Origin: Isurus oxyrinchus
Taxonomy: Eukaryota
Reading direction: 5' to 3'
NCBI GenBank assembly: GCA_026770705.1
Contig: JANJGN010000041.1
Coordinates: forward strand, 2,852,001 to 2,916,000
DNA length: 64,000 nt
Shown: piece by piece, positions 2 to 46,136 of the stretch
Position numbering within the stretch: position 1 is the stretch's first letter
Layout: every line of letters starts with the position of its first letter
Notes under the pieces: generated by a model
Database searches by the model: none
The model's input: only the letters and a program-made list of their open reading frames with translations
What the model was told of the DNA's origin: nothing
Program-made: the position numbers and the translations under genes

Positions 2-874
2 CTATTCACGATTGTGATATTGAGGCGCCAGAGGTGCGGTCTCTCCAATTGTGTTACCCGTTACCTGGTGGCCATGGCAGTGGCTGATCTACTGGTCATT
101 ATCCTCGACCTGATACTGAGGCATATTCCAATTGTGTTTGATAAGTATTTTATTTTCCTGCAATCAGTCCCAGTGTGTAATATCCACGCCGTCCTGCTCT
201 ATGCAGCCACTGACTGTTCTGTGTGGTTCACCGTCACTTTTACCTTGGATCGATTTGTGGCCATTTGTTGCCCGAAACTGAAAACTAAATATTGCAATGA
301 AAAAACGGCAGCTGTGATTCTGGGAACCGTGATTGCACTGAGCTGTTCAAAGAACATTTTCTGGTATTTTTTGCTCACAGGTCAGTACTGGCTGGTAAAC
401 TTCCCCTGGTTTTGTGGTCACACAAAAGAGGTTCTGTTCTCTCCTGTCTGGGTGACAATCGAGTTCACCCATCACATTCTAACACCTTGTGTCCCATTTG
501 TACTGATCCTGCTCATCAATATTTTGACAGTCGAGTATATTTTAGTGACCAGCATGACCCGCAGGAGACTTCGGTCTCATAGGAGAGGGGAGAGCCCCAG
601 AGACCCAGAGATGGACAATCGAAAGAAATCGATCATGTTACTGTTTTATATTTCAGCCAATTTCATTGTTTTATGGGCAATGTTAATGTTTTATTCCATA
701 TGGACCCGAATGCATGATTTTGGCTTTAATTCACTGTATCTAGATTTTTTTGTTCTGGAATTGGGTTTCATGCTGCAGCTCCTGAGTTGCTGCACAAACA
801 CTTGGATTTATGCTGTGACACAGACTAAGTTCAGGGAGCAGTTTTGGAAAATGTTGAAATATCCCTTCAATTAA
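2..874 (+). CDS. Class A GPCR, GPR139/GPR142-like; large terminal coding exon (5' part lies outside the window)
   Basis: The frame is open from base 2 (LFTIVILRRQRCGLSNCVTRYLVAMAVADLLV...) to TAA at 872-874. It shows TM2 AVADLL, TM3 DRF, TM4 W, TM5 P, TM6 FxxLW and TM7 SCCTNTWIY. The ORF-track start at 14 is an internal GTG. The frame begins mid-TM1 at the same position as the paralog's exon 2. Confidence 0.9.
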   Translation, partial: LFTIVILRRQRCGLSNCVTRYLVAMAVADLLVIILDLILRHIPIVFDKYFIFLQSVPVCNIHAVLLYAATDCSVWFTVTFTLDRFVAICCPKLKTKYCNEKTAAVILGTVIALSCSKNIFWYFLLTGQYWLVNFPWFCGHTKEVLFSPVWVTIEFTHHILTPCVPFVLILLINILTVEYILVTSMTRRRLRSHRRGESPRDPEMDNRKKSIMLLFYISANFIVLWAMLMFYSIWTRMHDFGFNSLYLDFFVLELGFMLQLLSCCTNTWIYAVTQTKFREQFWKMLKYPFN

Positions 875-1384
875 ATTTTTAATTAGTTCAATGATTGGAA
901 GAGCTGAATCTCTGACATTTCTAGGACATAATTTCACAATTCCAGCACTGCATAACGGTCTGTCACTGGGTGGAATGAATCAATGCAAACTTCCATAATT
1001 TTAACATTGAACTTAACGTTTTCAGTGGATAGGGGTGGAAACTGGGGTGGGGCTGTTGGGGTGGAGGGAGTGCTTTAAGTTGGAATTGAGAAGTCGTAAA
1101 TTACTAGGAGTTTCCTGAATTCTCTCAATGAATTTAACATTTCCAGCTGGCACGGAGGAATGGGGGTAGGATGGGGGTGTCTTGTGCATTCAATGGGTCC
1201 GTTTCAATGGAACCGAATCACTCAAAGCTTCCAATATTTTCTCCTTTCATTGCTCAATTTGAATTGAGGAAAATTCATCTCATTGGGAGAACAAATACAC
1301 CACGGTTTTCCAGAATTAAAGCATTTTCTCTTATTTATAGCTGTGGGGGTGGAGTGGTGGAGGGAGGGGGCGAGGGGAGGCCGT

Positions 1385-1720
1385 GAATGTTACCTCACTG
1401 ACCAACTACTCCCATCCAATTGGCCGATTGTAAAGCCTATCGTCCCCTCCGCCACACAGGAACGGAAGGTAATAAAGCTCAAGCCATTTGCACACTTCCA
1501 TTGCCCACAAGACATGTCCATTATCCTTCTCTCTCGTACTGATTGAACAGAAAACTAAGCCACTGATAGCCTACTTCCAAAATCGCCGATGCAACTGTCC
1601 ACTGCTTCTCAGTGATTGGACAGGAATCCTCCATCCAACACGTGATTGGAAGCCGAAATGGAATGCCGGAGTGGAACGTGGTGAGGTCTTGTCAGAGGAG
1701 GAGTGGTCGCAGCATACAAT
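1385..1720. promoter_or_regulatory. Promoter-like cluster of CCAAT/ATTGG and GGAA motifs
   Basis: CCAAT near 1416, two GTGATTGGA copies 30 bp apart (about 1612 and 1642), CACGTG near 1639, CGGAAG near 1463. Motif inspection only. Confidence 0.3.
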
Positions 1721-1924
1721 TCAAGTAACCAACAACGGCAGTAAGAACACAAACTGAAAGTGAGGTATCAGCAGAAATTAGTGCATGGCAGCAGCCCAGC
1801 GCACACTGAATTCTATTGTTTATAAAGGAAGTGGGTATCAATTCATCTGCAGAAAGAGGGCGGCGTTGTAATGGATTTGGTGTGTGTGTGCGGGTCAAGA
1901 CGGCACAACTGGACCTCGATCTCC

Positions 1925-2270
1925 CTAAAAGAGATGCAGATTGACATACAAAAAGAAAGAGCGAGAGAGAGGCATGTTGCTTAACAGACAGAAAGACACA
2001 GAGACTTTAAAAAAGAGATAGAAAGAATTTGAGTGGTGTGGGGGGGAGAGAAAGAGGCTGATAGAGAGAGAGGTGGAGGCAGAGTGAGAGATGAACGTAC
2101 TGGGATGTAGAGGGACAGAAAAACAGAGAGCGGGAAAGAGATAAAGGGAGAAATAGAGGCTGGAAGAGAACAACAGTGAGAAAGGGTGAGACGAACAATA
2201 AGACATTGAGAGAGGAAGACATTGAGTAACGGGAGGGGAGGTGAAAAAGAGGTAAGAGAGGGATTGGGTT
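1925..2270. repeat. GA-rich low-complexity tract
   Basis: Degenerate (GA)n/(GAAA)n purine run. It produces the spurious Ser/Leu/Phe-rich minus-strand ORFs. Confidence 0.8.
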
Positions 2271-2321
2271 AGTCACATCGTGGATGATATTTGGGAATTA
2301 AGCAGGGGGACATGGAAATTG

Positions 2322-2797
2322 CAGCTGAATGTATTTTAAATAGGGTGAAATCCCACTAACTTAGCACCAATCTGCTGAATGTATTTTAGCCAGTACGCAC
2401 TTATCAACACCGTGCTGAATCTATTTTAACAAACAATAAATCCCACTCACATATTATGACCCTGCTGAACGTATTTTAACCAGCACTAAATCCCATTAAC
2501 TTATCAATGATCTGCTGAATGTATTTTAACCAGCATTAAATCCATTAACTTGTCAACAATCTGTTGAATGTATGTTAGTCAGCAATAAATCCCACTCACA
2601 CATTACCACTCTGTTCCTTGTATTTTAACCAGCTCCAAATACCCTTCACTTATCACCACTTTGCTGAATGCATTTTATCCAGCACGAAACACCATTCACT
2701 TATGAACACTCTGCTGTATATGTGTTAGCCAACACTAAATCCACTCAATTATCAACACCCTGCTGAATGTATTCTAAAAGGCACAAAATCACATTCC
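2322..2797. repeat. Minisatellite, ~50 bp unit, ~10 copies
   Basis: A GCTGAATGTATTTTAACCAGCAxTAAATCCCAxTxACTTATCA-like unit recurs at 2324, 2374, 2414 (10-bp deletion), 2464, 2514, 2563, 2613, 2663, 2713 and 2762. Confidence 0.9.
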
Positions 2798-3399
2798 TGG
2801 TCGGGGAATCTTATACATTCGTATGTGTTAAAATTAGAGAATTAGCTTACTATTGATATCCTGAATATATATGTCAACTTATGGTGATGACTTAAAATTA
2901 CTGCACAAACATGTTAATTTATGCAGTGAGTCACTCCAAAATCAGACAGCAGTTAAAGTCTGTGGTGACGCATCCATTCCGAACATCATTCAGAGAATGA
3001 GCCAATCCGGGAGCACCACTGCTGTCTGACAGGCAGCACAGCCAATCTGGAGCTTCTCCCAGGGACTCACACAACCACTACCCAAAACCACCATCTCCAC
3101 AGCCACTCAACTAATTCACACACGCCGTTATTAAAAGCCACCTCATCCAATTGGTATGATTGACCAGGTGAATCACGATTCACTGAGCCTATTTGGTATT
3201 TTGTTGACATTCGCGTGACAAAATCCTCGAAATCCGCCTGGTGAATGACACCTTACGTGAACCAAACAGGGAGCATCATTATGTGGCTAAAAAACGCAAC
3301 AGCCAATCTGGGACTTCATTTGGTAACTCAGGGCCTTCTTCCCCAATCAGGCAGCTGCTTTTGGTGCTTTACGGTCGGGACAGTTGGTCAGCAAGTTTT

Positions 3400-6000
3400 A
3401 GATAGAGGCTAACATACTTACGGCACTCCTGGCTGCCTGGATGACCATATATGCAGAATGTGGCATCTGTTTAACGCGCTTGAGAACCGGGTTTTGGAGC
3501 TCAACCATCGGCTGGATGCAGTGGTGCACTCCGGTGCGCGAGACTCATATAGACAGCATGTTTCTTTTTTTTCACACAGTCACCGCACAGCTTAAGGAAG
3601 TGCAGTCAGACAAGGAATGGGTTACCCAAGTCAGAGGAAGGGGTGCTAGCAGTTAGTCAGGAAAGCCACCGAGTGTGTCTCATTTAAAAACAGTTTCTTT
3701 CTCTGTGTTGGAAAATGGTGACCGTGTTTATTCCCATTGAGAATGCAGCCAGAGCCCAGCTACACAAGCTGGGAGTGGAGAAAGTGAGGGAGAACAATCG
3801 TGTCGGAGACCCCAAATTGTGGGTGAGTCAGGCGTATCAGCGGCCAAAGGCATAACTCCAGAATGGTGTGTTGCATCCCTGGAGCCAGGGTCAAGACTGT
3901 CATTTTACTGCTCCAAGGAATTCTGAATGGGGAGGGCGAGCAGCCAAATGACATGGTTCACATTCGTCCTAAATGACTTATGCACAAAGCGGGATGAGGA
4001 CCAAGAATTTCGGGAGCAAGGTAGCAGCTTGAAAAGCAGGGCATCAAAGATTCTAATTTCTGGATTAATTCCGATGCCACGTCCGACTGTGAAGAAAAAT
4101 AGGTGGATAGATTAAATTCATGTGTGGCTGATGATGTGGTGCAGGAGGACTACTGAAAGTTTTTCGGTCATTGGGTGTGTTTCTTGTAGAGGTGGGAGGT
4201 GAGGAAGTCCAAGATATTTTACCTCAACCGGAAATGCATCAAAATTATTTATTGGTAGGGCTGGGGTTGGGGGTGGTGACGTGGTGCGGGCGCTGGAGAG
4301 TGGAGGTTTGCTGGTGCTGTTGTTGCGGGTTTAAACAAATTTGGCAATGCGATAGGATATGTAATGGATGTTACGTAGGATGTGATTTATAGGCAAGTTT
4401 AGAAGAAAAACTACGTCAGCCAGGAAGACAGCGATTATATAGTCAAGTTAAGGCACAAAGGAGAATGGCAGGGATGGATGGCACTTATTTTCATCCAAAG
4501 AGTCATGTGAGTCGGGCAGAATAATTGACAGTGTTGATTAACACAGAGATCTGGTGATGGAAAGGGCAGGGCTGGCAGCTCAAAATTCTGTTTATGGAAT
4601 CCGCAGTCGAGACGAGGCTGCCGTTGGGGGGAGGGCGGTCGGAATAGAGGAGTTGGTTCACAACATTAATCAATGAGTCAATTGCTGCAAAGAGGAAAGA
4701 TGATACCTTAGTGAGTTCCTCAGATGAGGCCGTATGGTTTGAGCTGAAATTCAAAAAGGGGCCAATCAATTTGCCACACCGAAACAGCCAGATTGATAGA
4801 AAGGCTGACATGTAGCCAAAATCAGAGAAGTGGAATAATAACAGGGTAAAAATAGTAGCTTTCCACTTTCCCCTATCTACGAGGATATACAAAGTGGTGA
4901 TGGCTTAGAGGGGACAGAATTTTCAAAATGTACCGAGGGGAGATTTTTAATGTGAAGAATATGAATCCCACAAGGAAGGCAGTAGGGCTGGACTTAGCAT
5001 TTGGGAACAAAACTGGGCTATTGGTAGAAGTTTGAAATGGGGAGAATTTCTCTGATTTTGTCCATAATTCAGTAAGTGTTAAGGTAGTTATTGGGAAGGA
5101 TAAAATGCACCTGATATAAAGCTGCTGAATTGGGAAAGCATGTTTTTAATAATTTAGTATACGATCCTGTCAAAGTGAACTGGAAGCATCCATCTGTCCA
5201 AAAACCTGCATCAGAGCAGAGGGAGTTTTGCAAAAAATGAAATATTGAGTGCTGGGGCAAACATTTCCAGAGAGCCCTGGATTTCGAGGAATGCACTGGA
5301 TTGAATGAGGGAAAACAGGAAGCTCCTCGAGGAAGCTGATGGCTCAAAAAAGCATGAGTCCTTCAAAATATGTAAATTGCGTATAGTTACTTAAATAAGG
5401 AAAGTAGGAGATCGAAGAGGGAGCATTGGAAAACACTGGCAGGTAAAATAAAGTAAAGCAAAAAGGTTTTTCGTAAGTATTTTACGGTCAGAGGATCACC
5501 AGAGAAAGAGCAGCTCGCATTTGGGACAAAATTAGTGTGTGGATTTATGAGATTTCGATGTTATTTCAAAAGGGCACCTTGCATCTTTATTTAGTGTAGA
5601 GAAGAGCGATGTAGGTATAGAAATCTGCGACGGGGACTGTGATGCACTTGAACAATTTAGGATTGAGAGGGAGGAGATATTAGATGTTTTATCTGACTTT
5701 GAAGTAGATAACTCGCCAAACCTAGATGCGATGATTTCCAGGCTGCTCTGCAAGGCAAGGAAGGAGATTGAAGTGTCCCTGGCATTAATTTCAAAATCCA
5801 GCCTCGTCACAGGAGAATCTCAGTTGACTTAAGGTCAGCGAATGTATTATCATTATTCAAATTAGGTGCCAAAAATCCAGGCAGCATTAAATTAGAGGAT
5901 CTAAAATCAGTGGTAGGGAAACTTTCGGAAAAAAAAATATCTGGGAGAGGACTGACCTCTGCTTGGAGAGGCAGGGATTAATCAGCGATAGTCAGCATTA
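3400..6000 (+). mobile_element. Degraded CR1 LINE (ORF1 esterase region, ORF2 endonuclease and start of RT)
   Basis: Near 3860 it reads RMVCCIPGARVKTV..LQGILNGEGEQP..MVHI, a CR1 ORF1 SGNH-like motif. Near 5700 it reads VDNSPNLDAMISRLLCKARKEI, matching the CR1 ORF2 DKSPGPD..PRLL.E..EEI motif. Many stops and frameshifts. Confidence 0.8.
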
Positions 6001-6419
6001 TTAATCTGGATTGCCATTGACCTTTCCCGCAGTTAGTCAAAACATTCTGGTTCTTTTAATCTGTGCAGGGTCTCTTGCGAAATTTTGATCCAGTTGGTAC
6101 ACTTAATTTCCAGGTATGTGGTCCAGCAGTGCCTCATTTCTCCTGGAACTGGAAACGCACTGCAGTAGAAATGTTTCCTGAGCACAGTTTAGGAACTGCT
6201 ATTATCAGTATCTACATTCGACTAATTGAACTCCCTCGTTCTAAGTATTCTACAATGCTTGCACTTCACTGTAATTTCCTTGCCAATTCGAGATTGTGCC
6301 CTTGCCACTTTGGTCTATACTATTTCTCCTGCACTGCAACATCATACAAGTCTCGACGATGCCACCGGAAGTCACCTAATAAGAATTTGCAACATCGCAA
6401 CAGCTAAATGAATGAAGCC

Positions 6420-9400
6420 AAAATCTAAAAAATGGCTGGAATAAGTCCCCAGATTCCCATGGTGTGACCTGAGATAACATGTCAACATTGCTGATGGAGT
6501 TAGTGGTAGTTTTACAAAATGAAAACAGAAACCCCAAGAGGATTTTGCTAAATTATGAAGCTTCCTTTGAGACGTGGAGGCCTAAGGTCTGCACCACAAG
6601 AAGTGGAAGTCCATTGCCTGGCTGCCCAAAAGTGCAGAATCGATGAACATGCGCTGATCTCAAAAAACTGAATGTAATGCACAAACAAACAGAAGAAAAG
6701 AGAACGGATGATAGATGTATCCATTTTAGGGGAAATCCACTTTTTTTTTTAGAAGAAGCACCTGAGTAAGGCAGAGGCCATACACCTGGCCAAATCAATA
6801 CAGATTGAGCAAAATACAAAATGAAGCTGGAGGTAAGTATTAAAATAGGCAGGACTCTCAGGACTTAGCACATCAAGGCGGCAGCTGGAGGAAAGCTGCA
6901 GCAAAAACTGGCAGTATTCCATCCGGAGGCCCAGCTGAAGTGAACGTAAGTTTTATTTACACAATTAATGCAATTAATTTAAACGACATGCTGAGTAGAG
7001 AAGAACCTGAAGCATTTAATAAAAAAAATGCTCCTTTCATTTGAACCCTGGGTTCTTGCTTTAAGAAAAATGAAAGCTGGGTTAACAGGCCGAACCTTTT
7101 GAATAAAATGGGATGGCCACAGTGCAATACTGCCGAATATTAAAAAAAAAGTGTGGAAATTCACAGCAGGGTTATTGACAGCTGCAGAGCCATCCTGAAG
7201 TGGATAAAAATGGATGTGGCACAGACAGCCATAAATGCGCAATGGCATTTAAAAAGATTAACTCAGGAAAAGAAAAATAAATTGCCTTGGATACGAAATT
7301 CCATCACAGCCACATTTTTGCTTCTGCAAGGGCTGAAGGGATAGTTTTCTTTATTTAAATTATTGGATGATTCAAGTTAAAGCACAATCTCTGGAGTCGT
7401 TCAGGCCAGCACCAACTTTACCCTCATTTACTGAATTGCATGACCGGTAATCCCAAGCTAGTACATTGATAATTCCTCAGCCACCTTCAATGACAAAATA
7501 AATGCCTTTCATGAATCTTTGAAACATCAAGTTGAGGACTCTGTAGAGCCTTACAAGATGCATACAAATCCTGTAGCAAATTAACAATCGGCGAAATTAC
7601 GTCCTTGAACACGTTATATGAAGCAACATAAAGGTCCAGAACTTCCTGGAAATCCCTGGAACCTGTTTTTATGGGGGGCCTGTGAGATGATTGCTAATTA
7701 CTTTCCCTATAAAATACCGATAATTGCTTCCAGCATTGTGCAAGCAGCTGGTAGTGAGCAGCAGGGAAATTAATAAAACTAGCGACTTGTCACGTGAAGG
7801 AGAAAAAGCATTAAATAAAAAGCAATCGCTTGTTTCAAAGCTGAACAGGATGAATTGAAGTGTGAGATTCAGGCTGGATATGTAGATTTGAAAATGCATC
7901 GCAAAACGCAGTCTTCAAAGAGCCAGAATTTTCGAGGCCTGAACAAACAGAAGTTAGAGATAAAACAAATGGGGCAGGGTGGGAATTAGCACCTTCAAAT
8001 GCACAGTTGGCAAATCAAACCGTGAGTTAGAAAATCTGATCCACATGTACAGCCAAGCAAAACAATAGGGAATAAAAAGATTCAAATAAGCAGGAAAATT
8101 GAAAGGCTCTCTGCAGAATGAACCTATATAGGTCAAAAAATCATCAAAAAACAAGATGTTGAATATTATTTGAGAATAAAGCTGCATTGGAACTATCAGC
8201 AGTATCAAAGGAACAGACTGAAGCTCAGGGTGAGTTGGTGTTAGTTGGCCAAGGAATTAATTAGTCGGAAAACAGCTGATTGTTCTGCTTCTTCAAAAAG
8301 CACAATTAAGTACATTATTCTTCAGCAGCATGAATACATTAAAATCTCTCCTACACAGCAGAACGGAAGAAGAGCACAGTAAAATCGAGGAGAACTTGCT
8401 GAATAAAAGGAAAGTGAAGATGAAGCAATTGAAGCTTCACAGCGCGAAAGAAAGCCTGGAGAAAAAAAATTAACACATTACAGATGTCCCTGAGGCCAAA
8501 TCATTTTCCTATGCAAAATGATGAAGAGTAGCAGCTTAAATTTCATCTGACTCTGAACAAAATGAAAACGCAATTTGCAGGGAAGACTACAGAATTTTGA
8601 AAATTATAGGAATAAGCCTAATCTGCCAGAAAAAAAGGACAGAAGAGCTGAAGAAACAGCTGACATTGAAAGGAAAAGTTAAAGCCCTTTCCAAAAATGC
8701 AAGCAGGTGATGAAGTTATGAACAAAACATTTGGAGAACTGTAGGAATTTACCTGCCAACGGAGACAGGCCTGGCCAACAGTGAAACCCACATGAAGGAC
8801 AAAGAGAAATCACTGCTGCAGGCAGAGGACGGAGGGGGGCACTGGCAAACTGGCAGGGTCACTGCATTGGAAGCCCAGAGACCCAGGCTACTGCCCTGGA
8901 AGCATGGGCGCCACATCCACCACGGCGGCTGGAAGAATTAGAATTCAGCTCTTAAACCTGTAATTGCAAGCTAGCCCCAGTGATGGGCACCATGAAACTA
9001 TCATCGATTATCATCAAATCCCATCACTTTACCAATGTACGTTAATTGAATGTCTGCCTTGCTGAACTGTTTTGACCGAAAAGTGGCTCCAGGAACCCAG
9101 CAATGCAGCCGGCTATAAACTGCGCTCAGCAGTCACCTAGTGAGTTCAGTTCAAAAGCAAAATCTATGGTCAAACAAATGCCGGTTTTCCAGCTACGCCC
9201 AGAACCTGTGGAAGAATAAGGAAGAAGAAAGATTGAAAAAAGATTGTAATTTGCGAATCTGATACTGAAGCTCAAGAGACAAAAATGCAAAATCACTGGA
9301 TTCCTCAAACGGACTGAGGGTTGTTGAAAAGTGACCTGGCTGAAATGGAGATCAAGAAGCGGGAACATCATAGAAATGGTGAGCAATTCCAAGGAGAAGT

Positions 9401-10270: not shown

Positions 10271-10389
10271 TATCAAGACAGCTGAATTCATGATGTATTA
10301 GCGTTGTCCAGGTCCGCGAGGTTGGGGGGTGGGGAGAGGGGGAGTGGGGGTGCTGTGGGGAGTAGTTGCGAGGTGGCGGTATTGTGTCA

Positions 10390-11448: not shown

Positions 11449-11672
11449 TCTTTTAGATGCTTCCGTTCACTGAATTTCTGAGAAGGAAAAAGAAACAAAA
11501 GCACTCTTCTTAGGTTCTGGTTTCTTACGTTAGGTGTTTCATGAATGTAATTGTCGTTAATCTTTTAGATGCTTCCGTTCACTGATTTTGTGAGAAGGAA
11601 GATGAAACATAAGCACTTCTCTTAATTTCCGTGTTGTTACGTCTGGTGTGTCGTGAATGGAGATAGCAAAAT
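11449..11672. repeat. Tandem duplication of a 112-bp unit
   Basis: TCTTTTAGATGCTTCCGTTCACTGA...GAGAAGGAA...GAAACA.AAGCACT starts at both 11449 and 11561. Confidence 0.85.
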
Positions 11673-14605: not shown

Positions 14606-14609
14606 GTGA

Positions 14610-23770: not shown

Positions 23771-25199
23771 AAGGTAGATTCCAAAATGTTCAGTAAGTCC
23801 TTACGCAACTTGTAAGTTTTGTATTGTACATTTCTCTTTCGCTCAGCTAACAAAGTGATGATTGTGTCACTTTTGCAGATAGTGTGGTCTCTCCAAATGT
23901 GACACTCGGCAGATGCTGACTATGGCAGAGCAAAACTGGTTTCCTCAACCTGATATTTCGACTCTTTCTGATAGTTTTAGGAAAAGAGTTTCGTTTCTTC
24001 AACTCCACCCCCGTGCGTAATGCCAACACTATCAGAAACTGACTGTTCTCCCTGGTTCACAGTCACTCACACCATTGAAATCTCTGTAGCCATTTTTTAG
24101 CAAAATCTGAAGAGTAAGTATGGTGTTGGCGGAACAGCGGCTAAGCTTCGGGTAATAGTGACCGTTTTGGTATGTTTAAGGAAAATTTCCCGATATTTTT
24201 TGTAAGCCAATGAGTATTGGCTGACGATAAAAGTCCATTCTGTTATGTGACAATAAATGACCTGCATTCTCAGTTTTGGAGAAAAATCGAATTCCTTGAT
24301 CACATTCTAACGCCGGAGAGGCTATTTGCCCCGCTTCTGCTGTTGAATGGTTTCACTGTCAGGCACAGGTTAATGACCAGCAGAAATTGCAGGACACTCT
24401 GGGTAATCAGAAACATGGAAGATCGAAGGGAACCCAACAATTTGCTTTTGTCCTCTCAACCAATTGCATCAAGTTATGGTCAAAGTTTATGGTTTACTCA
24501 TTGTGGTGGCAGATGTTGGATATGTTGTCCAGTTTGATGCATCCAGAAACCTTGCACAATGGTTTAATTCATTCTGCAGCTCCTGAGTTGATTCACAATC
24601 ATTTGTGTTTGTACTATGACTCAGAATATGTTGCGATTGCATTTGGAGAACGTTCTAGGATATGATTAAAATAACTGAAACACTGTTCGTGTGCAGCATT
24701 GTCCACTGCTCCTTCAGGTTTTCAGCGTCTGGAGGGGCTTGACAGAAAGGCAAATGAAAAATCTTGGGGCTTGTCGCTAATGATAACATTGTCTGTTGAA
24801 CAATTGACTTTTACAACATGAAGTTTCCTCGCTCTGATTAGACATCATAGTACCAAGAATAACAGAACTCACATTGGGCAATCCACTGGTCCACTTTTCT
24901 TCTCCTTCACAACCATCTGCAAGGGCCCCTCCCAGCAGCATCACCCACATAACCCAGCATCCCCACCCACCACCCCTAAACTTCATTTGGCCAGCCCATT
25001 TGTCCATCAGAACGCATTCCACAATTGTCCCTTGCAGATGTTGCACCTATTTTGTGGATTGATGAGGTGAGTTACAAAGTGTTGCCAGACCCCGGCCTGT
25101 TCTTTTTTTGGAAAAATTATTAATCGATTTACTGAAGATCATGAAAAATATGTGTCACAGTGATGTTGCCAAAAGGGACATTGTCTTTGTTAAATAACT

Positions 25200-32150: not shown

Positions 32151-32659
32151 GGAACGATTGTTCTCTTTATTTTTGCGATTTGGCCAAGGCATTTTTGATA
32201 ATGGTATTTGCACACATTTTTGTGACTGAATGTGCTGTACAGGTTGGTTATTGTTTTACATAATTAGTCTGATCGTTTTAAACCGAGTAGGGATGAAATG
32301 TACCCTTGGCTCCTGCTATGCTGAATCAGTTTTGATTTGTTTTCCCCAATGTTTTTCTCTTCCCGGTAAATTAGTGATGCTTTTGTTCCTGACACGAAGA
32401 AATTGTTATCCCTCAAATTGTATTATTTGCTACCAGAATTGAATGGCAGATACCGAATTCCTGGACGTCATATATGTTCCGAAATTAAGGGGAATTTGTC
32501 AGGCGAAATTCCCAGATTTATTTGTGTGCAATATTGGCATTCATTGTGTTTCTCTCTTTCTGTTTAAATAACAATCACATTTTTTTGCATCACGGTCGCA
32601 TTTATCAATGATCCGTCAGCGGATATTTATTGCAAGAAGCATTTCTACCCTTCATGATC

Positions 32660-36168: not shown

Positions 36169-36234
36169 TATATAACAGTTTCGCTGAATGTCAAGTTTCA
36201 TGTTTTGCAACAGGCTCGGTGTATCGGTTTCAAC
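36169..36234 (+). promoter_or_regulatory. Candidate TATA box and short non-coding first exon of the second GPCR gene
   Basis: TATATAA at 36169-36175, a CA about 30 nt downstream (36199-36200), and a strong donor AAC|GTGAGT at 36235. A matching acceptor (polypyrimidine...CTGTAG|) lies at 36899, just before the ATG exon. TGACGTAA (CRE-like) is near 36085. Confidence 0.45.
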
Positions 36235-36379
36235 GTGAGTTAGCTCCTCTTACAGTGAATATAATTTGTTGTAGTTCATAAGATACGATCCATTTTCAAA
36301 CCCATACTCGAAGCTGTCATTTTCCGATGTACGTTTATGAACATTCTCTCGGATTAACAATATCAATTTCTGTCCTTCT

Positions 36380-36680
36380 TTCGATTCATAGATGAGGGAA
36401 ATGCAGGCATGGCGAGCATTTATTGCCCATCTTTAATTCAACTTGTGAAGTGGGTGGTGAGCTGCTGCAATCTTTGTGGTGTAGTTACATCCACAGTATT
36501 ATTAGGGGGGAATCCATTAATTTGACAAAGAGACAATGAAGGAACGGCGATATTTTCCCGAATCAGGATGATGAGTGGCTTGGAGAGGAACATTCAGCGA
36601 CAGGCGTCCGCATGACCATGCTGACTTTGACTTTCTAAATGGTAGCGGCCATGGGTTTGATTAGTTAACTAAAGGGGTTC
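36380..36680 (-). mobile_element. LINE 3' fragment (same family as 21575-22950)
   Basis: GCATTTATTGCCCATC...GGTGGTGAGCTGC...ATGAAGGAACGGCGATAT is shared with the 21.6 kb copy. Confidence 0.7.
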
Positions 36681-36920
36681 ATATTGAGTAAAGGTAACAG
36701 CTGTTCTCTGTCCCCTGCCAGGAATGATGTCATTCTAGTTTTTCCCTGATGCTCTAGAATAATTAATGTGACATCTCCTTCCGAAGCTCCTAGTTTTTAA
36801 AGTGTTTCTCCTGTTTTCCTGAGATAAAACTTAAAGAAGAAGAGGATTTTTACGTTTCAGCTCACACGTTTATTTCTTCTTGTGCACCCATCTCTGTAGG
36901 AAAGACATCTCCTTAAAAAG

Positions 36921-36990
36921 ATGGGTGAACTGATACTTCACCAGCTAGAAGCCATTTATTATCCTGTTCTCGCGGCTATTGGGGTTCCTG
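36921..36990 (+). CDS. GPR139/142-like GPCR gene 2, first coding exon
   Basis: ATG at 36921 (AAGATGG, good Kozak context) encodes MGELILHQLEAIYYPVLAAIGVP plus one G, followed by donor GTAAGA at 36991. The phase-1 join to 45280 gives GVP-V-NLVAIVIL and restores the TM1 GxPxN motif. Confidence 0.9.
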
Positions 36991-38289
36991 GTAAGAGCTT
37001 TAATGCAATCATTACCCGTATAAATGCATGTTGACGTTCTTCTCAAGTGCTGTTTCTGATAACATGGAATCGTTTCTTTACAGTTGGGGACACATGAATG
37101 CAGGGATGTAAGTTTAAACATAACTTTAAAAGATTTCTTACTGTTGCTGTATCTTTCACTCAGGCGTCTCCACTGCCAACACCTTATTCATGGAATGTCT
37201 TGTAACAGAGTGGGCTCTGCAATAGATATCATAATCAAGTGCAAACCGAGTTTGAACTAGTAGAAAACCCAATCTGTGAAAATCTGTGCAGAGGCAATTT
37301 ATCATTCTGTAAGTTCCTGCTGGAAATACTTGAATGCTTTGCTAATGCTATTCATCCATTTCCCAATAGTTAAAGGAACAGGAACACTGTCAACTCGCAT
37401 ACTTACTGCCACAGCGATACGTTTACGAATCTGGATGCAGAGAGGATATCTGGAAGTCTGGGTGAAACAGATTCCGTTTGTGCAGAAGACATTTGAATGT
37501 TTTAGTAACCTGTCTATTGAAATGCATGTATTTCTAGAACCTCCTTTATCGAACTTAATGAATGTATATGAAGTGCAGTCAACGAAGTGATGCAAAAGGT
37601 GACAGGCAATTTCTGGTGGAGAGGCTTCTACAGGCAGCAAGTTTACAATGAGCTGATTATCCGTTTTGTGGGCTTTGGCCGAGGTTCAAATAGTGCTCAG
37701 GACACAAGGGGCTACGACAATGTTGTTCTTCGAAATAGGGGCATGGAAACTTTGAAAATAACTGCGAATCGATTAGTCATGTGTTACGAAAGTTATTATA
37801 ACCCATAGTGCAGAACTACTTCACTACAGCAATGGAGCATTAGCAGGGAATTTTCAGTGAGGGTGCTAACTGAGATATTCGTAGTCAGATTTTGGAAACC
37901 CTATGCACCCTGAGTAGTAATCTGGTTATCATTAATATGCTCATTTCAATTTCTAGCCCTCCACTTCCTGTTGTTGAAAACCCTGCTTCCAAATCTAACT
38001 GATTTACATTGAGGATAAGTGTAAATTGATATTAAGCATTGCCGGAATCCCCTGTGGCTTTGGCAAACGCACATTGCCATGTTACATGGTGTCGCTGACA
38101 GAGGGACATTGCAGCATAGGAAATACGAGTAAGAGTTGACCATTTGGCCGCACGACGGTGCTCCACTACTCAATTATATCATCGCTTAAATTATGCCTCC
38201 ACGACATTCCTCGCACTATCTCATATCTTTGGACGCATTTACTAATGCGAAATCAGTTCATTGACACATTCAACATACTCAATGACTGC

Positions 38290-41200
38290 CAATCCACGGA
38301 GGTTGCAGTACATAATTTCGAAAATTTACCCCTCCCTGAGTGATGAATTCTTCCTAAGACCAGTTCTAAATGCAGACCTCTTATTCTGATATTGCTTTTC
38401 AGGGTTTTAGGCACCCCCAACAGGGGAACAATCCAGGCAAATCTACACCAACGAAATTTATAAGAACGATGGATGCTTCAGTGAGATCAATTTTCATGTG
38501 CCAATGCTCCAGAAAGCAGAAGATGAGTCTCGTCAATGTCTCCACATAGGACAATCCCAGCGACCTTAATGTAATCCAAGAGGTAATGTGTTGAACATTC
38601 CTTGTCGCAGAGCTACAACAGCACCTAATGAAATCCACACAAAAGGGGCAAAGTAGATGGTTTACTGGAAGCACGAACATCACCATAAACATTCCACATG
38701 AATATTGCAGATTTGGGTAATCGCTGGCTTGGGGTTACAAATTATTCTTGTGCACAAATCAGCTAACGCTGATGGTCCACAGTGCCTCGTGAATGCCCTG
38801 TTTTGATCGGTTTATCAAGGTGAATTGTACGCCATTTAGCACAATGATTGTCTCACAAAATACAATCGAGAGAAGCCCTGATGTGAAGGCGGAATTTGTC
38901 TGAACAAGTACCGTGCGGCAGTTATTCCTATTAATCCTTTAATGAACAGATGCACCTGTGGTGGGTAGGTTGGTGGACCGGATTTACATAGAGTTTTGCA
39001 CCTGCGTTGTTCCCTGATCACCTGCCAAAGACCCAGTCTAGCAGTTACATTTATGGACTGGCCAGCTCGAAAATTAATGGCTCAACCGATCCTCTCTTGT
39101 TCACAGACATCGCGGTCCGCATTGTGAAGCATTTTTCTTTCCCTGTCATTCCCCAAAAGATCATCGATCCATCCACTGAGGGGAAAGGGAGGTGGTCAGC
39201 AGGAGGGGATATTCTTTGCCCATGTGTTTCATGATGTCATGAGATTTCATTTAAATACCACGTGCTCTCAAGGATATGAAAAGTGATGCACACTGAAAGT
39301 GTTGCAAAATGGTATTTAGGAATCAGTAATACAATTGTGCAATAACGAGAAATTCAAATGATATTTCACCATTTAGATCAGACAATTTCACTCAGATGTT
39401 TGCTGATGATTCATATGAACTTTAAAAGCTTTAAGAGGAATTACTCAGATAAGGATAAACATCTTGAATCATTCAATCTACGGAATGATTGCAAATCAAA
39501 CTGTCTGCTTTGTCTTGGAATAAGTCAATATTGTTGAATTATATTAGAGCGTAAATCATCCAGACAGGTGTAGCATATCCCATCATACTCCTGATTTGAC
39601 TATTTAAATGGAGGAAAGGTTTTGGAGAGTCAGGGGGTGCGTTGCTCACAACAGCATTCTCAGATTCTGACCTGCCCTTCTAGTCACAGTTTCTTGTCAA
39701 TGGTTTGTCCAATGATGGTGAAATTGGATTCTTAAGCGATGGTGATGTCATTAAAACTCATGGACATTTTGATGGATACTCCTTCGGTTCAGTTGGTCAT
39801 TGCATTTCAATTTTGTGGGATGCAAATTACCTGTCGAATTTCAGCATAAGTATGGCTATTGCCCAGGTATGGATGGACATGGGCATGGATGTTATTAGCA
39901 TAGGTTGTGTCGCGAATGGTGCTGAACTTTGAACAATTGTCAGCGGACACAACCTTCTCCCAGTAGCCCACACCCTACCCACCACACCAAACCTCTTTCT
40001 GTGTTTTAAATGGAATGTATTTCATTGATGCAGCAGCTTAAGATGGCTGTGCTCAGGGCACTGCCCTCAGGCTCTCGTCAAGTTATGTCATGGGAAACAA
40101 AGAATAAAGAAAAATATCCTTTTCACTTGATATGACTTCAAGCACTGGGGACTTTGCTCCTTTTTCTTATTGACTAAAATTCTGATAGCCCTCCTTGACA
40201 CCATAGTGTGATAGCTGTTGTCTTGATATAAAACACTGCTCCTCTCTCCTTACCTTATGAGTACAGCACTTTTGAAAATGTTTCAACCAAGGTTGAACCG
40301 AGAGTTGGAGTTCACACGAAGCAAGAAGTGAGCGTCAGTGAGCAGTTTACTGTGAGTACCTGGCGATTGAAAGCATTGTCCATGATACTTTTCATCACTT
40401 TGATCATGATGAAGTGTAGGCAGACGGTGCTGTAATTAGATTGCTTGGATTTGGCGTGTGTTTTTGTGGATAGGCATGTGAAAATGCTGACATTTTTGCA
40501 TCGATACCAGTATTTTAGATGCACCATACGAGCTTCGATAAAGTAGTCTTATTCAGGAGCACTGATCTCCCATACTATTGGCATTGTCTAAAATTACCCT
40601 TAGCCTCTGCATCATCCAGATTCTTCTGTCATTCCTTAAATTCGAGTGCTGAGAATCACATTGTATTACGCCTGGCATCTGTATTGCTTTTTATCCAATG
40701 GAGGAGGCTGGGATGGTTCATCCACCCGTCACTTCAGGGTGAATGTGGCTGCAAATTCTTCAGCCATGTATATGCACTGGTGCACAGTGCTACACAGTCA
40801 TTTCCGATGGGGATATTGGTGGTGATCCGTCCACCAGTGAGTTGCAGAATTTTCCACCGCCATTCAAGGCGACTGTGACTTCACTTCAGAGCTGAGCTAT
40901 CGTTACTTGGTAGGGCGATCAATGAGCCCTGCTTTTCTGATGCTGAATACGCTGTTTTGCCTGCAAGTAGCCTTGTCTTACAATTCAACAGGTGAAGCCT
41001 TGTTGTTAGGAATGGTCACTGTTGCTGTGGACATATGACAGATGTCGGCAAAGTTCCTTCATTTGTGCACTTGACCTCGAAAGCATGGAAGGACAACAGC
41101 AGAAGAGGCATGGGAACACTTTTAATTACAAAGTCCTTTCCAAGTCTCGCACCAAGTGGACTTGGAGATGTATCACCATTCCTTGACTGTCACTGGATCA

Positions 41201-41330
41201 AAAACCTAGAAATCCATCACTCGTAGCATTTTGTCTGCACCCGCTTCATATGGACTCCAAAGCTAGAAACATCTTATTTTCAAGAAGAATAATTGAAAAC
41301 AGAAATAAAATTACTAATCTTGTCAATATA
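38290..41330. mobile_element. Cluster of decayed LINE fragments inside the GPCR intron
   Basis: A CR1 3' end (minus, about 38290-38620) and several pieces of the CR1/L2-clade family (minus about 39560-41030, plus 3' end about 41040-41330) recognised by similarity to other copies in the window. Confidence 0.55.
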
Positions 41331-44300
41331 TCCAAAGAAAAAAAAAATCCATGATGAACGAGTTATGAAGAGTGACATTCTTTTTGTATTGAAATGACGG
41401 CCCTGGCTTTTGCTTTTTTTCGAGCTCAACAAACAATAACTACAATATCCATGTTTAAATGTAAATTATTTCGGACAATACTGGTCCCAAACTGAGAATG
41501 TATATTTTGAATTCACTCCTGAATATCCAAATCTTTAACCAAAAAAATTGGCTGAAATTTTCGTCCACATTTCATACCTCTCCCCCACCCTCTAAAGGCC
41601 CCACTCCCCATCACCCACCCACCTCAAAAATGCCGAATCTGCACGCAGGTCAATGACATGCATCGGGTATAATGTTGTCAGTTACATGAACCTCCCCGGT
41701 TTCAGATGGAGAACAGTTACAAGTTACTAATTAGCCACTTATTGAGTTTCTGAACGACACAACCGAATGTTTTCTTGATTCGTGCCTTGCATTTGCCGTG
41801 GCCCAGACGAGAGAGAAAACATATTTCTGTGCAGCTACCATCAGACCAGAATCGCGTGGAAGAGAGGTTCTGCGTCCGGGTCCATGATTAAATGCAGCAA
41901 CAGATGGTGCTGGGGAAGGTGGCAGCGGTTTCAGGATTACTTTTCACTTTTCTTGTTTCTTGCCTGAGCTTTCAACAAAAAATATTTTTGGCAAAACCGT
42001 TTCTGAGATCAAGTGGTCTTGAGCTTGCAGCCATACCGACTTCCTGTTCAAAGCATTACACTCTGTCGCAGGATGTTCAGGCTTTCACTGCCGATTGGAC
42101 GCATACCCTATTGTGCATCACTCATTGCCTCTTCACAGTGGCAATTTAATTAATTGTGGAGCTGGAGATGGTCTATGGGAGAGTGTGGAGGGAAAGGGCT
42201 AATTTTACATTTCTCCAATCTCACCTGCCTAAAAACGTAAAATCCATGCCACTGTCTACTTATTATAATGATTCTGCATGATTTTAAATCACGATTACGT
42301 TTTGCACATGCACCGGAGGATCTGTGTCACTTCTCTAGTGTAACTGCTGCTGACTGTATACTTAATTTGCTAGCTAAATAGTGGATAATCGTTTGGATAG
42401 GTCACTATTTAATTAGGTAGATAATTGGTTGCTTCATTCCTGCTCAACTTCAATGTTTAATTCGGAAAGAAATCTGGAAATATATTGATAATTTATTGGA
42501 TAACAGTTTTGATAATGAATTTGTTCAAACATTGGCTGCTTCATTGTATAATTTTTTTCAATTACTCTATATTTGAACCTGTTTCCTTATTTAGAGTGTG
42601 GCCAGTACAGTTTAAAGTGATGATAATTTGGCGAACAATCTTTGTATATTTCACAATAGCGCACAGATAATTATGCCTCTCAGTTTAAATGCATGTCATT
42701 GTCGGAATATAAATATTCGGTTTGCTCAAATAATAATAGGTATTGGGTAAATGAAGGTAAATTTTCATTTTTGACATTTATTTCAGCTGCAGCTGTGTCA
42801 AAATAGCTTTGATTAATAATGCTTCCACCTTTTCCAGTTCAACCTACATTCCGAACAGAAACCCAAAATTTAATTTTGATCTATTGCCTAGCGTTTTCAA
42901 GGCTGTTTGTGATTACCTTTGACAGCTCCATTAAGTCCATCAATATTTGATGCTTGCATTCGAGTTAGAGAATTGTGAATTGGGGGCTGCCAACTGGGCT
43001 GTGTATGTAATGCAAATAGATACTTGCTTTTTTTTATGTGTGGTCAAACATTGCCAATTTGCAATCTGATCCAAAAATGTAAAAAAAACTATTTATCTTT
43101 ATCCGACTATTTTGCATTACTTCATTCAAAGTTCATCTGAATCATTAACCAACAACATATTGAAATAACATGATCCAATATGTTAATTAACCACCCGTTT
43201 ATAGACCATCAATGCATTGTTATTTCCCTACATTCAAGTTTGCGAAAAATCTACGCTCAGTCTGCACCATGTTGCATAGCCTGGAAAACAGTTGATAATT
43301 GAAATAACTCTCGATCTACTCATCCCATTGTTTTGCGCATGTGCATTATCCATTCATTAATCTGTGCCTTCCAAATCTGACCGCGGATTTCGGTCGGAAA
43401 GCTATTCAGCACCCTTGAAGGAGCCATGACATCCTCTCCTATAACAGCGCCAGCAGAACTAAAAACAAAATTTCGGCAGCGAGCCGATTACCCACTTTCG
43501 ATAATAATTCAAGCTAGAGTTATTTAATTTGATTTTAAATGCCGAAAATAATCTAGCAAACGTGTGCATCAAGTTATTACATATCTAGCAGCTACAAATT
43601 AGTTCAGAAATATTCACTTAGAAAATATAATCTTCAAAATTCAAATGGACATTCACTATCTAAAGAACAGAAAGCATAATGCAACCGTGATTATCTGAGG
43701 CTCACATCAATTTCGCTTAACTTACATAGATGATTGGGTTTCATCAGTAATCAGTATAAATGTCTGAAGTTAATCTTGTGGAAAATAATGCAGCATTGAA
43801 TAACGGCGTTAATTCTCGAAAAATGTTCCTGCATTTTGAAAAAAAATATGCATTTTAACAAATAATGCTAAGATTCATGTGTTTTATGAACCTGGCCAAT
43901 CTGAAATGAAATAAGCTGTAGAGGATGTTAATTTAAACATGGGCGTGATAGGTGTAATGTCTCTTTCGTCAGTTTATCGACAATTCGTAATTTCACTTTT
44001 CTGAACATATATTAGTTTAAAGATTCAAATTGATGTCCCCATCACCTTCAATCTTTATCAAGATCTTTCGCACTTGATGCCCAGCAGAAATCAATTTTCA
44101 GCTTCATATTTAAAATCACTTCACACGGATGCTGCACTTGAGATGCCCTTTCTGCCCTTTCGGCAATAAAGTGAATGGTTTTGCAGCCGATCAATTAATG
44201 GGAACTCTGTCCTGTCTACTAGGAAGTAAAACGCTAGTTATGACCTCAGTACAATCACATCATCGAATTGGTCATTAACTTTGCTTTGCAAGAAATGTGC

Positions 44301-45279
44301 CCCTATGGCCAATAAACATTGCCCACTCAATCTGATAGCAATGTCACCGTTCCCAGTCCGCCATTAAATTGCCCTATTGATCAGGACTGACTCCACCCAT
44401 TCTGCATAGCAATGTTGCTTCACACCTTCTGCATTGAATTAGCGATGCATTCACCTGAAATAATGCTGCACAATGCCCAGCCAGCATATCAATCTTACAT
44501 TACTCATTCTGACTTAAAACACATGACTGATCAGCTCTCATTCATGAATAAAACTTCTCGCTGTGAACCTGCATAGGAATGTCACTTTGTACTGATTGTC
44601 ATTGTACCGCCACCGTGATAACTGCAGTGTAAACTTGCATTCAGCCTTGTCTATGCTGTCTTTTATGTAGCTCAGTGACCATTTTCTGGTCGTATGTTTT
44701 TGCCATTCCATCTTTCATCCTCTCAAGCATTCAGAGTATGTTCGTGCCCCTGGACAATATTTTACCTTCAAGCTGGATGTCCTGTAGCACAGTAATGCTT
44801 CCCAGTATTTATCACATCTGTAGACCACCCATATGCATTGCAGCAATACCTCTTCCAGAGTATAAGTCAACTTGGCACAGATACTATTTTGCGCATTAAT
44901 TTCCCATTTCACATTGTACCAACACACATGAATTGCCACTTTACACCTCCCATTTACCTTTTATTATTCACGATGCCCAGCCATTTGTTTGCTTTCAAAT
45001 TTTCCAGGTCACATTCGCCCTCAGTAATCTCAATCATTACTAAACAATAGTCGCCTAGTTTACGTTGAATATGGTCATTTCAAATTACGAATTATCAACT
45101 GAGGTTTTCCTTCCCTATCCACTTTGATTCGGTCCAGTTTAAATTTAGAACATGCTCGCCTCGGAATGCAGACTGTGCATATTTGGGTTGAAAGCACAAT
45201 CCTTTGCTGCAACAGGAACAAAATTAGTAATGTTCATTTGTGTCGTCTATCTCTTGCTCTCTTTATCCCTCTCTTACAG

Positions 45280-46136
45280 TTAATCTTGTTGCGATTGTGA
45301 TTCTTTCCCGAGGAAACTGTGGCCTTTCCAAATGTATTACCCACTATATGATCGCCATGGCCGTGGCAGATCTCCTGGTTGTTTGTGCTGAAGTCATACT
45401 GAAAAATACGCTGGATATTTATTTCCCTGTTTTATTCTTGACCACGAGCACGTTGTGCCCTCTAACTGTGATTCTGACTTACGTAGTCATATCAGCCTCT
45501 GTCTGGTTAACAGTGGTGTTCACCTTCGATCGTTTTGTGGTCATATGTTGTAAGAAGCTGCGAAAAAATTATTGCACAGGGACAACAGCGGTAGCTGTCA
45601 TATCAGTGGTGAGTGTGTTGAGTTGTTTGATAAACATTCCCTGGTACTTTGCGTTTGAAACTGCATTTATAATGGAAAATGTAAATCGTGGTTGTGTCCT
45701 AACACAGAATTTTTTCATTTCTGCTGAATGGGCCGCATTTGACTTGTTTACCATTATCTTGACGCCATGTATTCCATTTATCCTAATTTTGTTGCTAAAT
45801 GTTTTGACGGCTAGACATATTTTGGTGGCCAGTAAAGTTCGCAGATGTCTCCGCGTTTGCAACAAGGATTCTGAAATAGAAAGCCGAAGAACGTCCATTA
45901 TTTTACTCTTCAGTATAACCGGGAGCTTTATATTGCTCTGGACAACTCCGGTTATATATATTATCTCTTTGCATGTAACAGTCACATCGAATTCTGGCGC
46001 AAATGCACTTCAGTCAGTTGGATCCATGCTTGGGATCCTCAGTTGCTGCACAAATACATTCATTTATGTGCTGACACAGGCTAAGTTTAGGAAGGAGCTG
46101 AAGAACGGAATGCAGTATCTTGTGAAATTGGGATAA
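45280..46136 (+). CDS. GPR139/142-like GPCR gene 2, second coding exon (spliced protein 308 aa)
   Basis: The acceptor CTCTCTTTATCCCTCTCTTACAG ends at 45279. The frame is open with AMAVADLLV, FTFDRF, PWYF, LTPCIPF, SFILLW and SCCTNTFIY, and stops at TAA 46134-46136. 70+857 nt = 309 codons including the stop. Confidence 0.92.

What the first reader, a model, noticed from the sequence alone, without database searches (positions are those of the whole stretch)
2..46136. Two divergent tandem GPR139/142-like receptors: a candidate expanded amino-acid or chemosensory receptor family
Seen: two open-frame paralogs on the same strand, 45 kb apart, apparently sharing the intron position in TM1. By eye they share only about half their residues. 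Cytoplasmic motifs (CGLSxC, AMAVADLLV, DRF..ICC, RRxLR, SCCTNTxIY, TQxKFR) are conserved, while the extracellular halves of TM2-TM3, ECL2 and ECL3 differ strongly. Knowledge: mammalian GPR139 and GPR142 are single-copy receptors activated by aromatic amino acids, and sharks have few classical OR genes. Inference: clustered paralogs with a conserved signalling face and a variable ligand face fit the pattern of sensory receptor families, so this may be an under-recognised chondrichthyan chemoreceptor repertoire.
Basis: partly seen in the sequence, partly recalled or inferred. Interest (0 to 1): 0.75.

Follow-up and report, generated by a model that had tools for sequence, protein, structure and literature searches.

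The report
Shark's thousand-gene hidden receptor family

Summary
Both genes are open-frame two-exon class A GPCRs (43% identical). They belong to a family with at least 1,423 motif-defined loci in this genome; a rough recapture estimate gives about 3,300, with 15 of 40 sampled copies intact. Relatives occur across sharks and rays, auto-named 'probable GPR139'. They are not GPR139 or GPR142: both exist separately as single hits, a joint clade is rejected (AU p=0.004), and the aromatic-amino-acid pocket is gone (E3.32 in 0 of 75, R6.51 in 4 of 75). The sister lineage is a conserved amphibian/sturgeon gene with a near-invariant pocket (entropy 0.05 vs 0.63 inside). In sharks the pattern is inverted (2.26 vs 0.90). 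Gene 1's clade shows positive selection, 16 of 17 sites on the outer face; gene 2's clade shows a weaker, unlocalised signal. Verdict: a birth-and-death receptor repertoire reading many ligands; chemosensory is the best guess (0.5), immune or somatosensory roles are live rivals, and no tissue data were available. Ten literature searches found no description; I recall, unverified, a brief mention of tens of copies in the 2019 white-shark paper.

The parts
1..874 (+). Gene 1, exon 2 (TM1 from N1.50 to stop). The exon begins 4 bases before the window; exon 1 is at L001:6733-6907 (G000:C41:2848733-2848907), intron 3,089 bp; predicted protein 350 aa if the first ATG is used
2722..3015 (+). Decayed family fragment (TM6-TM7/helix 8 region; best HSP 2860-2979, 1 stop)
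23826..24759 (+). Decayed pseudogene copy of exon 2 (HSPs in two frames, 8 and 2 stops)
32332..32568 (+). Decayed family fragment (TM1-TM2; best HSP 32368-32526, 1 stop)
36921..36990 (+). Gene 2, exon 1 (ATG, short N-terminus and first half of TM1; phase-1 GT donor at 36991)
   Evidence: (E 1.7e-10); contigs of run X1 join this donor to the exon-2 region
36991..45279 (+). Gene 2 intron, 8,289 bp, GT-AG; its 3' part has 98-99% identical copies in other blocks on the same contig
45280..46136 (+). Gene 2, exon 2 (rest of TM1 to stop; whole protein 308 aa; seven-helix model, mean pLDDT 78.5)

Best explanation
The two genes are open-frame members of a GPR139-related class A GPCR family that has multiplied to over a thousand loci in this shark with a fixed signalling face and a diversified ligand face, and they likely act as chemosensory receptors, each predicted to bind a different external, probably peptide-sized, cue and to signal through one shared G protein. 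Shown: two-exon structure, copy number, clustering, recent block duplication, many dead copies, invariant class A activation residues, inverted pocket conservation against the single-copy amphibian orthologue, and positive selection on the outer face in gene 1's clade. Inferred: that different members bind different ligands (strong inference), that ligands are peptide-sized (weak: selected sites sit on loops and helix tops, and protostome relatives are peptide receptors), that one transducer is shared (from invariant ICL2, TM3, TM7 and helix 8), and that the cells are chemosensory (by analogy only; no tissue data).
For: Copy number: 1,423 exact TM7-motif hits vs 0 control; 1,928 TM3-motif hits vs 5; 40 of 40 sampled TM7 hits are family; 251 of the 272 loci listed are full length without a stop. 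Signalling residues over 217 rows: D2.50, D3.49, N7.49 217/217; R3.50, W6.48, Y7.53 216/217. Pocket entropy 2.26 vs 1.71 other outer TM vs 0.90 inner in 75 non-redundant shark/ray rows; 0.05, 0.38, 0.63 in 20 amphibian orthologues. Gene-1 clade (42 copies): M2a vs M1a 2dlnL 242, 17 sites, 16 on the outer face (Fisher p 6e-6); the same sites are hypervariable in 117 other database proteins of that subfamily (3.09 vs 0.68 bits). Known shark chemoreceptor repertoires are small (catshark 65 genes, 8 ORs; PMC6368271). Protostome sister receptors bind aromatic-amide peptides (PMC8557429).
Against: No tissue expression could be obtained: no RNA run held more than 6% of gene 2's words, and the one informative run has no tissue label. 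In catshark the 50 most specific genes of the brain/olfactory library held no GPCR (PMC11979771; weak, as sparse receptors would not rank). 25 of 40 sampled copies fail the intact test and overall omega is high (0.56 and 0.61), as expected of drift too. Gene 2's clade has only 3 selected sites, not enriched outside (2 of 3; p 0.57). Loop-centred selection fits immune or pathogen-driven evolution equally well. A weak recombination signal exists in gene 1's clade (p 0.042) and can inflate the test. The two joints seen in run X1 appear to use acceptors other than the in-frame one.
Confidence: 0.5

Rival explanations
1. Innate-immune or barrier pattern-recognition repertoire: the receptors sit on leukocytes or epithelia and detect microbial or parasite peptides, working like formyl-peptide or chemoattractant receptors.
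For: 13 of 17 selected sites in gene 1's clade are in extracellular loops; rapid block duplication with 98-99% identical introns and many pseudogenes are typical of immune multigene families (own knowledge); FPRs serve both immune cells and vomeronasal neurons (PMC12294341).
Against: No kinship to chemoattractant receptors was shown: the nearest sequence relatives are GPR139/142-type receptors. A thousand-member GPCR repertoire is known to me only from sensory systems (own knowledge).
Confidence: 0.2
2. Mostly neutral amplification: a few functional receptors are carried along by frequent segmental duplication, and most copies are redundant or decaying.
For: The gene1+gene2 block occurs 7 times on contig C41 at 43-45 kb spacing with 95-100% protein identity; 25 of 40 sampled copies are broken; omega 0.56-0.61; similar clusters on C39/C56/C153/C317 could include alternate haplotypes; tandem clusters scale with genome size in two batoids (10.1101/2025.06.08.657570).
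Against: Drift does not make the pocket more variable than the other outer-TM positions or invert the amphibian pattern, nor put 16 of 17 selected sites outside; 45-53% of codons are under strong constraint (omega 0.07-0.12); many subfamilies are kept across sharks and rays; 134 intact rows still form 42 clusters at 90% and 15 at 70% identity.
Confidence: 0.13
3. Somatosensory repertoire like mammalian MRGPRs: expressed in skin-innervating sensory neurons or mast-like cells, detecting irritant or parasite peptides.
For: Cartilaginous fishes are reported to lack MAS1 and related receptors (PMC8455134); conserved inner face with variable outer face is also the MRGPR pattern (own knowledge).
Against: No sequence kinship shown; MRGPR families reach tens, not thousands (own knowledge); no expression data.
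Confidence: 0.09
4. Reproductive recognition receptors (sperm, oviduct or clasper tissue) for seminal or pheromonal peptides.
For: The wider clade includes MIP/proctolin/myosuppressin peptide receptors (PMC8557429); reproductive proteins often show positive selection (own knowledge); the expansion matches internally fertilising elasmobranchs (own knowledge).
Against: Copy number far exceeds known gamete-recognition families (own knowledge); no data.
Confidence: 0.06
5. One reading: GPR139/142 paralogues that sense free aromatic amino acids in the same way.
For: GPR139 is the best PDB sequence hit (E 1.9e-9); same intron position; W6.48 kept in 74 of 75, aromatic 3.33 in 55 of 75, H at the H187 column in 40 of 75.
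Against: E3.32 in 0 of 75, R6.51 in 4 of 75, N7.39 in 14 of 75; a family+GPR139/142 clade is rejected (AU p 0.004); true GPR139 and GPR142-like genes are separate single hits.
Confidence: 0.02

Closest known systems
GPR139 and GPR142 (vertebrate orphan class A receptors for aromatic amino acids and small peptides)
   Same: Best sequence match among solved structures; phase-1 intron before N1.50 (two exons per PMC7318219); GPR139 and GPR142-like score 74 and 65 bits on the family profile against at most 31 for 30 other shark class A GPCRs.
   Different: 20-24% identity; polar pocket lost; family has the C3.25-ECL2 cysteine pair that shark GPR139 lacks; separate clade; over a thousand loci vs one hit each.
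Non-mammalian 'GPR139-like' orphans (GPR210A/B sets of PMC6504862; 'Orphan 139-like' of PMC5207463)
   Same: The family nests among three vertebrate lineages of this type: amphibian/sturgeon gene (100/100), coelacanth/teleost gene and a shark-C6/anchovy/caecilian gene (99/97), with amphioxus genes as sister (95/86).
   Different: Those are described as small gene sets in bony vertebrates, with no shark data. I did not match my three lineages to the named sets by accession. The amphibian sister gene shows one cluster per species and a frozen pocket.
Vertebrate chemoreceptor families (OR, TAAR, V1R/ORA, TAS2R, rodent vomeronasal FPRs)
   Same: Works like them in genomic terms: clustered, short coding region, birth-and-death turnover, constant inner face, variable pocket.
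   Different: Not a member: no OR, V1R or TAS2R Pfam match; derives from a peptide-receptor lineage; sensory expression untested.
Lineage-specific class A GPCR expansions in lophotrochozoans, echinoderms and nematodes
   Same: Proposed chemoreceptors with variable, positively selected pockets (PMC11886862); some family members and shark GPR139 cross-match Pfam Srx.
   Different: Independent expansion in a vertebrate; direct kinship with those expansions not tested here.

Membership tests
Class A (rhodopsin-like) GPCR | 7tm_1 domain above curated cut-off | tested here: met
   51.4 and 70.9 bits vs 30.5
Class A (rhodopsin-like) GPCR | Seven-helix fold plus helix 8 | tested here: met
   AF2 model of exon 2; top 50 Foldseek hits are class A receptors, TM 0.59-0.71; GPR139 ranks 24th, so fold does not single it out
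Class A (rhodopsin-like) GPCR | Activation residues D2.50, D/R3.49-50, W6.48, N7.49, Y7.53 | tested here: met
   216-217 of 217 rows each; P6.50, P7.50 and W4.50 are not kept (alignment)
GPR139/GPR142 | Orthology: forms a clade with GPR139/GPR142 | tested here: not met
   Separate in both trees; AU p 0.004; true GPR139 is one hit on C15 and a GPR142-like gene one hit on C22 (the GPR142 label is my reading of 55% identity)
GPR139/GPR142 | Agonist pocket E3.32, F3.33, H5.43, W6.48, R6.51, N7.38 (PMC7318219) | tested here: not met
   E 0/75, F or Y 55/75, H 40/75, W 74/75, R 4/75, N 14/75
GPR139/GPR142 | Two exons, intron in TM1 | tested here: met
   Same phase-1 acceptor before N1.50 in both window genes and in shark GPR139; GPR139's own exon 1 was not located
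GPR139/GPR142 | Activation by L-Trp/L-Phe | not testable with these tools
   needs a cell assay
Non-mammalian GPR139-like orphans (GPR210-type) | Clade with coelacanth/teleost/amphibian GPR139-like genes, outside GPR139/142 | tested here: met
   99/97 for the vertebrate clade, 100/100 with the amphibian/sturgeon gene
Non-mammalian GPR139-like orphans (GPR210-type) | Identity with the named Ensembl sets GPR210A/GPR210B | not tested
   accessions of PMC6504862 could not be fetched
OR / V1R / TAS2R / TAAR | Family-specific domain or motif match | tested here: not met
   only 7tm_1 (and Srx in some relatives) in Pfam scans; TAAR has no own model in these scans, but amine-type receptors fall outside in the trees only as unnamed outgroups
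Chemoreceptor repertoire (functional kind) | Large clustered family with birth-and-death turnover | tested here: met
Chemoreceptor repertoire (functional kind) | Hypervariable, positively selected ligand face | tested here: met
   strong in gene 1's clade, weak in gene 2's
Chemoreceptor repertoire (functional kind) | Sparse expression in sensory cells | tested here: inconclusive
   only an unlabelled run with spliced homologue contigs

The most novel reading that the evidence does not exclude
Sharks and rays have their own main olfactory receptor family, built from a GPR139-like peptide-receptor lineage, with about a thousand intact genes in this shark: it would rival the mouse OR repertoire, explain keen shark chemoreception despite about 8 ORs, and have stayed hidden because every copy is auto-named 'probable GPR139'.
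Probability: 0.35. Interest if true: 0.95.

Novelty: new variant of a known kind. Interest (0 to 1): 0.76.

Why it matters
Sharks are described as poor in chemoreceptor genes (65 in catshark; PMC6368271) and in GPCRs generally (PMC8455134). This family, even at its strict floor of 251 full-length open exon-2 copies, outnumbers the whole published catshark repertoire about fourfold. It makes a standing question (how sharks smell so well with so few receptors) testable with existing RNA-seq. Whatever the tissue, it is a clean case of a single-ligand receptor (frozen pocket in amphibians) turned into a many-ligand repertoire, and the amphibian orthologue gives a handle on the ancestral ligand.

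Tried and rejected
Simple GPR139/142 duplication: rejected. Pure assembly artefact: rejected as the main cause, since about 54 listed copies lie on one 7.09-Mb contig, block copies differ by 1-5%, GPR139 is a single hit, and other species' annotations hold the family; some inflation by alternate haplotypes remains possible. First-look candidate numbers (7,986; 7,769; 8,010) are not copy numbers and were not used. Expression: the run search gave two small-share RNA or RNA-guess runs and no labelled shark tissue; X2 (labelled coral metatranscriptome), X9 and X11 gave only scattered cover. Fold search confirms class A but does not rank GPR139 first. My first pocket statistic mis-anchored TM5 by three residues; the corrected value (repeated in 103) is used. 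Rfam found nothing. Earlier-findings look-ups returned nothing. A sharper genome-wide overlap count of the two motifs was not obtained, so the total rests on a 40-locus sample. The 2019 white-shark paper was not held; the catshark paper's supplement was unreadable; 12 of 24 whale-shark supplements were searched without a GPR139 hit; bioRxiv supplements were not seen and may list this family.
Full report
OBSERVATION. The window holds two long + strand frames, 2-874 and 45231-46136. Both match Pfam 7tm_1 and nothing else, are 43% identical, and have human GPR139 as the best sequence hit among solved structures (E 1.9e-9 for gene 2). Gene 2 is complete in the window: exon 1 at 36921-36990, an 8,289-bp GT-AG intron, exon 2 at 45280-46136, 308 aa. 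Gene 1's exon 2 begins 4 bases before the window; a candidate exon 1 with a phase-1 GT donor lies 3.1 kb upstream (L001:6733-6907; profile E 0.012, so less firm). The intron sits before N1.50 in both, as does the acceptor of shark GPR139. Between the two genes identity is 6/41 in extracellular loops, 21/76 in outer TM halves, 64/102 in inner TM halves and 27/61 in intracellular loops. Three decayed copies lie between them. The closest database proteins to gene 2 are from basking and white shark (78%), so the genome is likely a lamniform shark (inference).

SCALE. Protein searches of the own genome (4.98 Gb) scored 137 loci for gene 2 and 135 for gene 1; the lists do not overlap, and by my count 120 and 131 are full length without a stop, a floor of 251, biased to the best hits. 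Two more queries listed 123 and 128 loci in further subfamilies, partly overlapping. An exact TM7 motif has 1,423 matches against 0 for the reversed control; a TM3 motif has 1,928 against 5 (these were not sampled, and a few may be other class A receptors). I fetched 40 of the first 100 listed TM7 hits: 40 of 40 are family, 15 of 40 pass my intact test for exon 2, three more are open to TM7 but stop within 12-19 codons of the motif, and 23 of 40 carry the TM3 motif too. Recapture gives about 3,300 loci and on the order of a thousand intact. This is rough: the sample comes from large contigs only, clade-specific motifs bias it low, alternate haplotypes could bias it high, and exon 1 was not checked. 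About 54 listed copies lie on the window's 7.09-Mb contig; the gene1+gene2 block occurs 7 times there with 95-100% protein identity, and the 3' intron has 98-99% identical copies. Database searches gave 1,891 and 1,694 clusters at 90% identity; all 120 listed for gene 2 and the 117 named of 120 for gene 1 are sharks or rays, nearly all named 'probable/putative GPR139'. No chimaera appeared among those listed, which does not show absence.

RELATIONSHIPS. The genome has one canonical GPR139 (C15), one GPR142-like gene (C22, 55%) and one further single relative (C6). On a family profile, full-length members score about 400-520 bits, the C6 gene 110, GPR139 74, GPR142-like 65, and 30 other shark class A receptors at most 31. 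A search of 50% representatives and name look-ups of 20 of the 150 hits found relatives in salamanders, coelacanth, teleosts, a caecilian and amphioxus. In a 60-row tree and a 34-row mixture-model tree the family is sister to an amphibian/sturgeon gene (100/100), these join two other vertebrate lineages (99/97), amphioxus genes are next (95/86), and GPR139/142 lie outside (one long unnamed row drew a long-branch warning). A family+GPR139/142 clade is rejected (AU p 0.004). The salamander query found 20 amphibian clusters at 66-100% identity, one per named species, and a sturgeon protein, so the sister gene looks single-copy there. The two window genes fall in different subfamilies, each with members in other elasmobranchs, so their split is old.

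ANATOMY. Over 217 rows (134 own-genome, 83 database) D2.50, D3.49 and N7.49 are invariant and R3.50, W6.48, Y7.53 hold in 216. GPR139's agonist pocket (E3.32, F3.33, H5.43, W6.48, R6.51, N7.38; passages of PMC7318219 and PMC12775434) is not kept: in 75 rows non-redundant at 80%, E 0, R 4, N 14, H 40, F/Y 55, W 74. The key control is: at 28 generic pocket positions (list from my knowledge of class A structures), entropy is 2.26 bits in the family against 1.71 for other outer-TM and 0.90 for inner positions; in 20 amphibian orthologues it is 0.05, 0.38 and 0.63. The most conserved part of the single-copy receptor is the most variable part of the shark family. The AF2 model of exon 2 shows seven helices and helix 8 (pLDDT 78.5) and matches class A peptide receptors without singling out GPR139.

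SELECTION. I fitted codon site models (own code; M0 likelihoods equal IQ-TREE's) after dropping near-identical rows (53 to 42, 42 to 32). Gene-1 clade: omega 0.56; M2a vs M1a 2dlnL 242; 7.6% of sites at omega 4.2; 17 sites with posterior over 0.95, 13 in loops, 3 at helix tops, 1 intracellular (Fisher p 6e-6; outer omega 0.80, inner 0.40). The same 17 sites are hypervariable in 117 other database proteins (3.09 vs 0.68 bits). Gene-2 clade: omega 0.61; 2dlnL 27; 3 sites, no outer enrichment (p 0.57; outer 0.71, inner 0.51). A recombination check gave p 0.042 and 0.20. Posteriors are naive empirical Bayes on a fixed tree, and loop alignments hold indels.

EXPRESSION. No labelled shark RNA run was found. 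In run X1 (RNA by guess, organism and tissue coded) contigs about 84-89% alike to gene 2 cover exon 1 and exon 2, and two join the exon-1 donor to the exon-2 region, which suggests spliced transcripts of a homologue; both joints appear to land at other acceptors than the in-frame one. This says nothing about tissue or level.

MECHANISM. Best reading (0.5): a chemosensory repertoire. An ancestral single-ligand receptor was duplicated in elasmobranch ancestors; block duplication keeps adding copies, over half decay, and survivors change the ligand face while the G-protein face stays fixed. Many ligands is a strong inference; peptide-sized ligands, one shared G protein and chemosensory cells are weaker inferences. 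Rivals: immune pattern recognition (0.2), mostly neutral amplification (0.13), MRGPR-like somatosensation (0.09), reproduction (0.06), GPR139-style amino-acid sensing (0.02).

LITERATURE. Ten searches (listings and abstract starts) returned no paper describing this expansion. Passages read: PMC6504862 names three small sets of GPR139-related genes in bony fishes and coelacanth, no shark; PMC5207463 lists 'Orphan 139-like' as unclear; PMC8455134 speaks of a paucity of GPCRs in cartilaginous fishes (12 of 24 supplements searched, no hit); PMC6368271, part 1 of 4, counts 65 catshark chemoreceptors; PMC11979771 passages do not mention the family (supplement unreadable); the Squalomix preprint surveys tandem clusters with no '139' in its main text (figures and supplements not seen); PMC8557429 places GPR139/142 sister to protostome W/Y/Famide peptide receptors; PMC11886862 describes analogous invertebrate expansions; term searches in 10.1101/2022.10.17.512540, 10.64898/2026.08.31.747588, PMC12208981, PMC9561540 and PMC12294341 showed nothing on it. 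From recall only, not seen: the 2019 white-shark genome paper (not held) may mention tens of GPR139-like copies. Most subscription papers are outside the library, so absence in print is not shown.

VERDICT. Real, intact-looking genes of a very large elasmobranch receptor family that is annotated but, in what I could search, not described. New variant of a known kind; interest 0.76; if it proves to be the shark's main olfactory family (0.35), 0.95.

Noticed in passing
window 45282-46133 (gene 2 exon 2 residues 13, 18, 89, 90, 98): Five cysteines on the cytoplasmic face (ICL1 and ICL2) are 92-100% conserved across 75 non-redundant members; a metal site or palmitoylation cluster is possible. GPR139 lacks most of them.
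   Followed up: no
P0213, P0284-P0303 (database proteins): An orphan receptor of frogs, salamanders, a caecilian and sturgeon with an almost invariant pocket, apparently absent from amniotes among the 25 hits: a good deorphanisation target.
   Followed up: partly
L084:1420-2439 (-), G000:C6: A single-hit GPR139-like gene that groups with anchovy and caecilian proteins and keeps E3.32, H5.43 and R6.51 like GPR139.
   Followed up: partly
window 52366-52985: Open frames on both strands that look like the C-terminal endonuclease region of a Penelope-type retroelement (recalled motif); no Pfam hit.
   Followed up: partly
window 2398-2796, 11449-11659, 62633-63006: Degenerate tandem repeats with periods of about 50, 112 and 51 bp.
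   Followed up: no
G000:C41:2924683-2933522 (window-relative about 72683-81549): The next gene downstream is a close paralogue of gene 2 (83%) with the same exon layout and an 8-kb intron.
   Followed up: partly
L029-L040: A broken copy with two TGA stops has itself been amplified at least a dozen times on several contigs, showing that duplication carries dead copies along.
   Followed up: no
database proteins P0001-P0424: Many RefSeq models of the family have odd N-termini or names such as 'vasopressin V2 receptor-like' or 'capa receptor-like', which would hide the family in name-based surveys.
   Followed up: no
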